Origin: a virus
Taxonomy: Duplodnaviria > Caudoviricetes
Virus record (IMG/VR): IMGVR_UViG_3300027804_000106
Location: 1-39,856 of that record
DNA length: 39,856 nucleotides
Direction: 5' to 3' (one strand)
Below, piece by piece: positions 1,021 through 2,146 of this stretch. Under the pieces are notes generated by a model. The model did not search any database, had not been told where the DNA came from, and saw only the letters and a list, made by a program, of their open reading frames with translations. Position 1 is the stretch's first letter, and the number at the start of each line of letters is the position of its first letter. The position numbers and the translations under genes are program-made.

Positions 1021-1187
1021 TACTCACCTACCGTTCTATATGATATACCTAGATATATGTTTCTTACATTGTGTTTGTTAAGATTAAATTGTTTAGCTAC
1101 CTTTGGAATAGGCATGGTCTTCAATGCCTTCTTGATTGCTATGACCTGTTCAGTCGTTAAATATTTTTTATGATAAACTTCGCTCAT
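1020..1187 (-). CDS. Small HTH DNA-binding protein (55 aa)
   Basis: Manual: MSEVYHKKYLTTEQVIAIKKALKTMPIPKVAKQFNLNKHNVRNIYLGISYRTVGE; LTxEQV...VAKQFNL...V..I is an HTH pattern; GAGGAGG upstream; TAATG coupling. Confidence 0.65.
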   Translation of the reverse strand: MSEVYHKKYLTTEQVIAIKKALKTMPIPKVAKQFNLNKHNVRNIYLGISYRTVGE

Positions 1188-1360
1188 TAATATGGTGCCT
1201 CCTCGTAATCATTTGTATTAAACACTTCTTTTGGTGTTTTAGGTAACTCTATCACATCTATATCAGGGTGTGAATCTTTATACCATTTAGCTTCTCGTTT
1301 TGACCAACGATATTTCCTGATGATGTCTCCATCATCTACAACTGCGTGAGTAAAATCCAT
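1187..1360 (-). CDS. Hypothetical protein (57 aa), first gene of the left operon
   Basis: Manual: MDFTHAVVDDGDIIRKYRWSKREAKWYKDSHPDIDVIELPKTPKEVFNTNDYEEAPY; RBS AAAGGA upstream. Confidence 0.7.
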   Translation of the reverse strand: MDFTHAVVDDGDIIRKYRWSKREAKWYKDSHPDIDVIELPKTPKEVFNTNDYEEAPY

Positions 1361-1374
1361 ATGATCCTTTCATT

Positions 1375-1689
1375 GTTTTTAGAGATAGCTCCGCCTAGGG
1401 TGAGAAGTAGCACCTTTGATCCATATCAAGCAACACAAGCACACTCAATACCAATCCTACACAGAGTTAATGTTCAATCGACATACAGTAGGCAAGTCAC
1501 CCCAGTCCTGTATATCTTGTGTGATACCCATTTAAGTTCACGAGGCTCGCTTGCGGGTGTAAACAAGGCCTATGTATTCTTCCAAGCAACCCATGTAGGT
1601 TCACTGATATCGTTTGGAGTACGGATAGAAGGGAATAGAAAGATGATGACGTAGAAATACATCATCAACTTTCCTTGTCCAATCTCTCA
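1375..1689 (-). ncRNA. Candidate ~310-nt structured ncRNA or long 5' leader
   Basis: No convincing long ORF; more GC-rich than flanks; stems 1638-1673, 1480-1516, 1559-1604 and 1419-1425/1620-1626 each contain a position that is G.U on the - strand but a C.A mismatch on +; promoter-like element directly upstream. Confidence 0.5.
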
Positions 1690-1695
1690 TTTATT

Positions 1696-1724
1696 AATTT
1701 ACACCTAGTTGGATAAAAAAGCAA
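1696..1724 (-). promoter_or_regulatory. Putative sigma70 promoter
   Basis: - strand TTGCTT-N17-TAAATT, just downstream of the terminator at 1730-1768. Confidence 0.45.
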
Positions 1725-1729
1725 TAGCT

Positions 1730-1768
1730 AGAAAAGAAAAACCCCTAGATGATCAGTCTAAGGGTTTT
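1730..1768 (-). terminator. Rho-independent terminator
   Basis: - strand AAAACCCTTAGA-CTGATCA-TCTAGGGGTTTT followed by TCTTTTCT; the single non-WC pair is U.G on -. Confidence 0.8.
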
Positions 1769-1838
1769 AAGGTGCGAGGGACACCGAGACTTTATCAGAG
1801 AGATTAGATAAAGGAAAGCCGTGAGGAAAGGGACTCAC
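1730..1838 (-). ncRNA. Candidate ~110-nt sRNA with three CU-rich-loop hairpins plus terminator
   Basis: Bounded by a near-consensus promoter (1845-1873) and a terminator; hairpins 1821-1838, 1790-1813, 1771-1785; no ATG-initiated ORF. Confidence 0.65.
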
Positions 1839-1844
1839 AACGAA

Positions 1845-1873
1845 ACTATAACAAACCTGACTATTCCTGTCAA
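1845..1873 (-). promoter_or_regulatory. Strong sigma70 promoter
   Basis: - strand TTGACA-N17-TATAGT (11/12 consensus, optimal spacing). Confidence 0.8.
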
Positions 1874-1877
1874 CATA

Positions 1878-2066
1878 TTTGTAAAAGTTATATAGAAATA
1901 GTTGTATATAACTAAATGTTATATAGAATTAGGCATTATTCATGGTTTTATGGAGGATTTTGTATAGCAAAAGGCGCATTATATTCAATACAAACTAGTT
2001 TGTATGGAGTAAATTACATACAAAGGTGTTTGTATAGCAAAAATAGATCTTTTTTATATACAAAGG
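1878..2066. repeat. AT-rich array of direct and inverted TT(G/A)TAT repeats (operator or origin candidate)
   Basis: ATACAAACTAGTTTGTAT (1988-2005, perfect palindrome); ATACAAAggtgTTTGTAT (2018-2035); TTTGTATAGCAAAA x2 (1959, 2029); GTTATATAGAA x2 (1887, 1918); TAGTTGTATATAACTA (1899-1914). Confidence 0.6.
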
Positions 2067-2074
2067 AAAATATT

Positions 2075-2146
2075 ATGTGGACAACTCCAGCAGCTACAGA
2101 AATGCGTTTTGGCTTTGAAGTAACTATGTACGTAATGAACAAGTAA
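2075..2146 (+). CDS. pqqA: Pyrroloquinoline quinone precursor peptide PqqA (23 aa)
   Basis: MWTTPAATEMRFGFEVTMYVMNK: MWxxP...R(F/L)GFEVTxY signature with the Glu-x3-Tyr pair that becomes PQQ; RBS AAAGGA at 2062-2067. Confidence 0.95.
   Translation: MWTTPAATEMRFGFEVTMYVMNK

What the first reader, a model, noticed from the sequence alone, without database searches (positions are those of the whole stretch)
1375..1689. Candidate ~310-nt structured RNA heading the left operon
Seen: about 330 nt with no convincing gene in an otherwise gap-free genome, preceded by TTGCTT-N17-TAAATT. It has several stems: 1638-1673, 1480-1488/1508-1516, 1559-1564/1599-1604, and long-range 1419-1425/1620-1626. CCUACAUG (1591-1598) could alternatively pair with UGUGUAGG (1456-1463). 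The recurring non-WC positions are G.U on - and C.A on +, which points to selection on a - strand RNA rather than DNA palindromes. Inference: an unclassified large phage ncRNA, a switchable leader, or a replication-primer RNA. I cannot match it to any class I know.
Basis: partly seen in the sequence, partly recalled or inferred. Interest (0 to 1): 0.8.

Follow-up and report, generated by a model that had tools for sequence, protein, structure and literature searches.

The report
Knotted phage RNA replacing replication initiator
This gene-free stretch is a real, intricately knotted RNA of no catalogued family, found in freshwater phages at the spot where relatives carry their DNA-replication starter protein, and it likely starts genome copying itself by acting as an RNA primer.

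Summary
The RNA is real. Its conserved part is 1623-1376 on the minus strand (~248 nt); 1690-1624 is a variable leader. Over 100 phage homologues support five pseudoknots: 37 of 52 pairs show compensatory changes. It has no Rfam match and no conserved ORF.

Context points to replication. In 97 of 97 complete slots between cro and a truncated initiator gene there is one RNA: this one (50), a Betaproteobacteria-1-like RNA (26), or others. Behind the same promoter, two relatives carry a full O-like initiator and no RNA. Sixteen small carrier genomes lack the tested primase, helicase, loader and polymerase families. A profile of the family's 3' end ranks the ColE1 origin first among ~13,250 plasmid positions in most settings (post hoc). 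A neighbouring small RNA pairs with the leader, like ColE1 RNA I.

Best reading: a ColE1-like primer RNA and origin (0.6, untested). Against it: the window's own lineage encodes a helicase and primase, and one slot-mate lacks the 3' motif. Earlier scan notes described the small RNA in two other genomes and proposed primer roles for other phage RNAs.

The parts
1845..1873 (-). Promoter-like site (TTGACA-17-TATAGT, extended -10) of the upstream small RNA
   Evidence: 11 of 12 consensus matches; similar in relatives
1735..1838 (-). Predicted ~100-nt small RNA ending in an intrinsic terminator (1768-1738); its middle pairs with the first ~30 nt of the long RNA
   Evidence: I2: 1798-1816 with 1670-1688; 25-bp duplex, -32.5 kcal/mol; cognate pair ranks first in 8 of 15 loci; ends inferred
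1696..1724 (-). Promoter-like site TTGCTT-N17-TAAATT; predicted start near 1690
   Evidence: sequence; recurs in lineage; start not mapped
1624..1690 (-). Variable 5' leader: long hairpin (1673-1638) with a pyrimidine-rich tail; replaced by other terminator-like leaders in other lineages, absent in L132/L161
1572..1623 (-). 5' domain: P1 (1623-1621/1613-1611), pseudoknot 1 (1617-1615/1584-1582), lone pair 1614-1607, P2 (1602-1598/1591-1586), pseudoknot 2 (1596,1593,1592/1572-1574). Also heads two other slot RNAs (L453, L472)
1543..1571 (-). P3 with loop CACCC (1559-1555), the same five letters as the 3' segment 1402-1398
1521..1541 (-). P4 with near-invariant UAAAUG loop; pseudoknot 3 pairs 1532-1529 with 1469-1472
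   Evidence: 6 of 7 stem pairs compensatory; pseudoknot 100% paired, one pair compensatory, in a single clade
1480..1516 (-).
   Evidence: 9 of 9 stem pairs compensatory; pseudoknot 100% paired, 2 of 5 pairs compensatory
1451..1479 (-). Conserved core: junction 1479-1466, 2-bp hairpin 1467-1466/1460-1459, pseudoknot 5 (1465-1464/1451-1452)
1404..1456 (-). P7 (1456-1453 with 1421-1418, variable-length stem inside) and variable P8
   Evidence: partner found by script, 4 of 4 paired in 32 of 53; region aligns poorly
1376..1403 (-). Conserved 3' terminus: CACCC, G-rich tract, CUAU, then an A-run at 1380-1376; predicted RNA-to-DNA switch site
   Evidence: conservation; profile ranks ColE1 origin first; function inferred
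1187..1360 (-). First downstream gene (57 aa, no family); in relatives the operon continues to an SF2 helicase and a Toprim primase

Best explanation
The minus-strand stretch 1623-1376 encodes a conserved five-pseudoknot phage RNA that likely works as a ColE1-like replication pre-primer, standing in for the initiator protein and its origin. SHOWN: the fold; its place in the replication-initiator slot; its interchange with other RNAs and, in two relatives, with a full initiator gene; the conserved 3' terminus; a complementary upstream small RNA. INFERRED: host RNA polymerase starts near 1690. The RNA folds as it is made and stays hybridised to the template around 1403-1376 as an R-loop, possibly helped by the P3 loop (CACCC), which is complementary to the template strand there. 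Host RNase H cuts in the A-run at 1380-1376 and Pol I extends the 3'-OH. A helicase then loads on the displaced strand: the host's in the small phages, the phage's own helicase and primase in this lineage. The small RNA, or an attenuator leader in other lineages, would set how often a productive primer forms.
For: (1) Slot. Of 160 loci fetched by cro or by the short initiator domain, 41 were incomplete and 22 duplicates. All 97 others hold one sense-strand RNA-like element: 50 this RNA, 26 Betaproteobacteria-1-like, 19 a third type, 2 others (Rfam RF02932). (2) The same three types interchange before the helicase in a different phage backbone: 10, 7 and 1 of 26 loci, 8 unassigned. (3) Exchange with protein. 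Behind one shared post-cro promoter element, 22 distinct loci gave 8 this RNA, 12 a related RNA, 1 truncated, and 1 a 245-aa O-like initiator. MW202520 likewise has a 244-aa initiator and a P-like gene, and no RNA. (4) In all 94 complete slots the initiator-family ORF is at most 170 aa and matches only the C-terminal half of phrog_270. In 3 of 4 cultured phages checked the domain ends a 244-269-aa protein. (5) 16 small carrier genomes (13 at least 90% complete) have no Toprim_3, DnaB_C, Pol A, Prim-Pol, IstB, SF2-helicase or integrase match. Complete G007 has no initiator domain either. (6) A profile of 55 family 3' ends ranks the ColE1 origin 1,1,3,1,1,1,19,4 of ~13,250 positions in 8 settings. 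Sixty further ends give 1,1,2. The motif is the top site of its locus in 11 of 12 RNAs of a different slot type. (7) An antisense partner to the 5' end exists. (8) Precedent: ColE1 (PMC5043065, passages), MRB plasmids (PMC3035462, parts 3-4 of 6), mycobacterial prophages (PMC7157519, passages).
Against: No experiment. The window's own lineage encodes an SF2 helicase and a Toprim primase (7 of 7 records), so it has another way to prime. The Betaproteobacteria-1-like slot-mates lack the 3' motif (ranks 5-38). In the third type the motif is also a hairpin arm. The ColE1 comparison was post hoc, with window limits chosen by me, and the motif resembles a ribosome site plus ATG, although ATG is present in only 31 of 66 ends and the ORFs are mostly under 35 aa. 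No sequence or fold similarity to ColE1 RNA II and no plasmid homologue. RNA-for-protein exchange rests on 2 close cases. One of 4 cultured phages checked also has the short domain alone, without this RNA. The P3 loop differs from the 3' segment in 10 of 53 sequences, and P3-loop/P5-loop complementarity is no better in cognate than in non-cognate pairs. The cognate small RNA was not top-ranked in 7 of 15 loci. Transcription evidence is weak: contigs only.
Confidence: 0.6

Rival explanations
1. Cis-acting RNA antiterminator, like the HK022 put RNAs (recalled): the folded RNA binds RNA polymerase so that it reads through into replication and late genes.
For: Sits just after the promoter and cro, at the head of the rightward operon. 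Sense strand only. No antiterminator gene is named among 38 ORFs of G007 or in MW202674.
Against: Would not explain exchange with an initiator gene behind the same promoter, the lack of replication genes in small carriers, or the ColE1-like 3' end. In the lambdoid-type carriers a fresh promoter-like site follows the RNA (read by eye). A terminator-like leader lies before the RNA, not after it.
Confidence: 0.13
2. Riboswitch-like or translational leader that controls the downstream operon.
For: In the window the next gene's ribosome site follows within ~15 nt. The compact multi-pseudoknot core with 59 near-invariant positions is aptamer-like.
Against: Downstream genes are unrelated between lineages. 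There is no conserved terminator or ribosome-site sequestration after the core. The proposed switch helix is not conserved. In L132/L161 the core starts at the promoter with no leader.
Confidence: 0.1
3. Trans-acting RNA or ribozyme: a scaffold for the stand-alone initiator C-terminal domain or a host protein, or a self-processing RNA that separates the cro transcript from downstream mRNA.
For: Own promoter, many invariant unpaired bases, and a duplicated hairpin-loop/AACAU module (D5, 83). The short initiator domain accompanies most small carriers. One loop is complementary to two CACC sites, as guide sequences are.
Against: No 3' terminator to define a free RNA. G007 and the helicase lineage lack the short domain. 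No ribozyme family match.
Confidence: 0.1
4. The element folds as single-stranded DNA (non-template strand) and is a primase or primosome loading signal, not an RNA.
For: G.T wobbles can form in ssDNA. Weinberg 2017 raises this for plasmid replication motifs (PMC5737381, passages). The location fits replication.
Against: Always placed just behind a promoter with attenuator or antisense control. RNA-library contigs cover it in 3 of 4 runs laid. Short tertiary pseudoknots with A-rich linkers are typical of RNA (general knowledge).
Confidence: 0.07

Closest known systems
ColE1 RNA II pre-primer with RNA I (NC_001371; PMC5043065 passages)
   Same: Rep-independent context; promoter-driven folded RNA with no 3' terminator; antisense RNA against its 5' end; similar G-tract/CTAT/A-run at the end.
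   Different: Phage, not plasmid. ~250-310 nt against ~550. Five pseudoknots. No sequence or model similarity. The antisense RNA comes from a tandem upstream gene, not the opposite strand. Priming not shown.
Betaproteobacteria-1 RNA motif (Rfam RF02932)
   Same: Occupies the same slot behind the same leaders and interchanges with this RNA in two phage backbones.
   Different: Different sequence and fold. The window does not match RF02932; model R1 gives no significant match to L254 or L301. It lacks the ColE1-like 3' motif. I found no function for it in print (Weinberg 2017 supplement unreadable).
MRB plasmid origins / PAGEV, and ARRPOF (PMC3035462; PMC5737381)
   Same: Structured RNAs of 220-470 nt in Rep-independent replication regions; MRB has an inhibitory small RNA.
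   Different: Plasmid-borne; no Rfam match to PAGEV or ARRPOF; MRB RNA I is cis-antisense.
RNA-based origins of mycobacterial cluster A prophages (PMC7157519, passages)
   Same: Phage replication region where a noncoding RNA replaces RepA in some relatives.
   Different: Those maintain parABS plasmid prophages in Actinobacteria. These carriers have no integrase match and were not tested as a set for parABS. Sequences not compared.
P1 c4 / P4 CI antisense RNAs (c4 listed in PMC2864571; mechanism recalled)
   Same: Upstream small RNA pairing with the leader of a replication-related transcript.
   Different: No Rfam c4 match (that search covered 1000-2200); the regulated product here is a large noncoding RNA.

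Membership tests
ColE1-type origin | Sequence or structural homology to RNA II / RNA I | tested here: not met
ColE1-type origin | No full replicon-encoded initiator | tested here: met
   the window itself is only 66% complete
ColE1-type origin | Antisense RNA transcribed from the opposite strand over the primer's 5' end | tested here: not met
   No plus-strand promoter-like site there; the partner is a tandem upstream small RNA
ColE1-type origin | G-tract/CTAT/A-run at the RNA-DNA switch | tested here: met
   post hoc profile test, ranks 1-19
ColE1-type origin | Persistent R-loop, RNase H cut, Pol I extension | not testable with these tools
   needs experiment
Betaproteobacteria-1 (RF02932) | Match to the Rfam model at its gathering score | tested here: not met
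   window; type A loci negative, five slot-mates positive
Any other Rfam 15 family (riboswitch, ribozyme, PAGEV, ARRPOF, Polynucleobacter-1, c4) | Match at gathering score | tested here: not met
   9 matches at E up to 10, all far below gathering
tRNA / tmRNA | ARAGORN call | tested here: not met
Protein-coding gene | Conserved open frame, indels in threes | tested here: not met
put-type RNA antiterminator | Binds RNA polymerase and suppresses termination in cis | not testable with these tools
   position fits; no assay

The most novel reading that the evidence does not exclude
These phages have replaced the origin-binding initiator protein with a set of interchangeable folded RNAs. [quoted passage not shown] That would be an RNA replication initiator, and it would give Betaproteobacteria-1 and at least four uncatalogued RNAs a function.
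Probability: 0.2. Interest if true: 0.93.

Novelty: new variant of a known kind. Interest (0 to 1): 0.8.

Why it matters
RNA-primed, initiator-free origins are described for ColE1-type and MRB plasmids and for some mycobacterial prophages. If this reading holds, widespread freshwater phages swap several unrelated knotted RNAs in and out of the slot of the lambda-O-like initiator. That would explain how complete 32-36-kb genomes with no recognisable replication enzyme start copying. It would also suggest a function for an orphan Rfam motif and give small, directly testable replicons. Even if the primer role fails, a ~250-nt RNA with five supported pseudoknots and 59 near-invariant positions is a new structural family.

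Tried and rejected
The MFE fold of the window: differs from the comparative fold. My early idea of a closing helix between 1610-1603 and the region near 1450: replaced by the 1614-1607 pair. Leaderless 29-aa ORF 1690-1601 and plus ORF 1346-1654: no family, not conserved. 3' ATG as a start codon: rejected. First G and B models were contaminated with coding flanks and gave false double hits; rebuilt. My first motif patterns missed loop variants, so early 'invariant' counts were biased. GC skew in four complete genomes follows transcription and cannot place an origin. Prokaryote genome scan: 3 hits, 2 real, both short MAG contigs, so no host assignment. Plasmid search: nothing. MRB and CLV plasmid records could not be retrieved, so the 3' profile was tested on ColE1 only. 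Of 24 runs listed, 23 had small shares; only 4 runs were laid, and run X3 covered downstream genes only. Literature searches found no description of this RNA. Four of six readable supplements of PMC10690425 held none of its motifs. Two archives and three larger files could not be read, so it may be among that paper's >10,000 unnamed candidates. The Weinberg 2017 supplement was unreadable.

Full report
Setting. The window is a linear, ~66% complete phage contig with virion, recombination and nuclease genes. It carries a PqqA peptide at 2075-2146. From general knowledge this points to a methylotrophic betaproteobacterial host; no host was shown. The left end is cut before the replication genes. 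In close relatives that operon continues to an SF2 helicase and a Toprim primase.

Observation. The minus strand of 1375-1689 folds better than shuffles (z = -3.23); the plus strand does not (z = -0.73). Rfam and ARAGORN find nothing. BLAST found one homologue among 50,697 phage records, MW202674. Motif scans then gave 108 distinct full-length copies, the window included, and 93 among 105 distinct metagenome hits (not de-duplicated against the first set). Only 2 real hits lay in prokaryote genomes, both short MAG contigs. Conservation runs from 1623 to 1376. The leader 1690-1624 varies. In L132 and L161 a promoter-like site sits directly before the core (read by eye), so the core is the unit.

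Structure. Mutual information on 58 sequences (effective number 34, mean identity 65%) returned almost only pairable column pairs at the top. I named a 52-pair structure and counted it on 53 of 63 representatives; 10 with long inserts or truncation were left out. Result: 96.2% of cells paired, 37 of 52 pairs compensatory, 0 of 500 shuffles as high, slid controls 32-44% paired. The structure was derived from overlapping sequences and relatedness is not removed, so this is strong support but not an independent P value. Five pseudoknots are 100% paired. Pseudoknot 3 has only one compensatory pair, in one clade. Two hairpins carry the same UANAUG loop, each docking on a CAU after an A-rich linker.

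Expression. Contigs from RNA libraries cover 1329-1668, 1446-1596 and 1462-1635 in 3 of the 4 runs laid, from three studies. Contigs show neither strand nor ends and may include DNA. This is weak support.

Context. The RNA follows a Cro-like gene in 23 loci and precedes a ~125-aa protein matching only the C-terminal part of a replication-initiator family in 17. One attenuator-like leader is followed either by this RNA or by other noncoding elements, including Rfam Betaproteobacteria-1, and never directly by an initiator ORF in that scan. A census anchored on proteins fetched 160 loci: 41 incomplete, 22 duplicates, 97 complete slots. These hold 50 of this RNA, 26 Betaproteobacteria-1-like, 19 of a third type and 2 others, one per slot, all sense. 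These loci are the best 80 of about 500 per query, so they lean to close kin. The same types interchange upstream of the helicase in the window's own, different backbone: 10, 7 and 1 of 26, with 8 unassigned.

The control came from a shared post-cro promoter element. Of 122 loci, 87 matches were unrelated and 22 were distinct homologues: 8 this RNA, 12 a related RNA, 1 truncated, and 1 with a full 245-aa O-like initiator starting right after the leader. MW202520 has the same arrangement with a 244-aa initiator and a P-like gene, and no RNA. An Acinetobacter phage with this Cro family has cII, O and P. None had both.

Replication genes. Sixteen small carriers, 13 of them at least 90% complete, have no match to seven replication or integration families. 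Fourteen have only the short initiator domain. Complete G007 has none, and 38 ORFs of 75 aa or more gave no initiator, helicase, primase or polymerase. All seven larger carriers, the window's kind, have a helicase and a primase. This counts against a strict need for an RNA primer in the window's lineage.

The 3' end. The family ends in CACCC, a G-rich tract, CTAT and an A-run. ColE1 reads GGCGGAGCCTATGGAAAAA at 1179-1197. That this is where RNA II switches to DNA agrees with the ~550-nt figure in PMC5043065 (passages); the exact cut site is recalled. A matrix from 55 family ends ranked it 1,1,3,1,1,1,19,4 of ~13,250 positions over 8 settings, and 60 further ends gave 1,1,2. I saw the likeness first and tested afterwards. 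The same motif ends 12 RNAs of a differently folded slot type and is the top site in 11 of their loci. It is absent from the Betaproteobacteria-1 type. The P3 loop repeats the 3' CACCC exactly in 43 of 53 sequences, through three variants, so it is complementary to the template strand there. A comparable RNA-to-template contact is recalled for ColE1 RNA II; my search for it found no paper.

Control. An upstream small RNA with its own promoter and terminator forms a 25-bp duplex with the leader's first 30 nt. Cognate pairs rank first in 8 of 15 loci and in the top two in 10, with crude windows. Earlier scan notes e1-6308246 and e1-9787921 described this small RNA in other genomes; my test agrees in part.

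Verdict. The RNA family is real, and I found it in neither Rfam nor the literature searched (unread supplements of PMC10690425 and PMC5737381 could hold it). It works most likely as a ColE1-like pre-primer and origin (0.6). It is not a member of the ColE1 family: homology and the cis-antisense layout were tested and not met. Rivals are an RNA antiterminator (0.13), a regulatory leader (0.10), a trans-acting RNA or ribozyme (0.10) and an ssDNA signal (0.07). Papers seen: passages of PMC5737381, PMC7157519, PMC5043065, PMC5703827, PMC2864571 and bioRxiv 2026.07.01.735769; parts 3-4 of 6 of PMC3035462; listing and four supplements of PMC10690425; listing only of PMC3488243.

Noticed in passing
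window 2075-2146 (+): PqqA precursor peptide gene (Pfam PF08042), followed by a 204-aa ORF of phrog_24927; present in several relatives.
   Followed up: partly
window 1875-2078: AT-rich direct and inverted repeats between the divergent promoters (D1-D3, I1); possible operator array or an alternative origin element.
   Followed up: no
L321, L312, L617 (type G); L453, L275, L626 (type E); L454, L472 (type H); L262, L278 (type D); L601: At least four more uncatalogued noncoding elements fill the same slot; eight loci tested have no Rfam match. L453 and L472 share this RNA's 5' domain, so the RNAs are modular.
   Followed up: partly
3' ends of L453/L275 type and L454/L472 type: Very G-rich ends (four G-tracts, or long G-runs) that could form G-quadruplex or R-loop hybrids, as at the mitochondrial origin (PMC3488243, listing only).
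   Followed up: no
L252, L254, L263, L301, L302: The Rfam Betaproteobacteria-1 model (120 nt) covers only the 5' part; a conserved ~70-nt 3' domain ending in CCACC plus an A-run follows.
   Followed up: partly
L605 ~1660-2045: An HNH-like ORF appears inserted between an RNA-like remnant and a 3' motif of this family's kind.
   Followed up: no
L144, L171, L625, L640 after cro: A conserved ~90-nt element between cro and the leader, shared by RNA-bearing and initiator-bearing phages; possibly another small RNA.
   Followed up: partly
MW202674 5130-5377: Two annotated 'hypothetical proteins' lie on the opposite strand over the RNA and are probably false gene calls.
   Followed up: partly
G007 (L594-L595): Complete 31.6-kb phage with SSB, Sak recombinase and exonuclease but no recognisable replication gene; the simplest model for a test.
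   Followed up: partly
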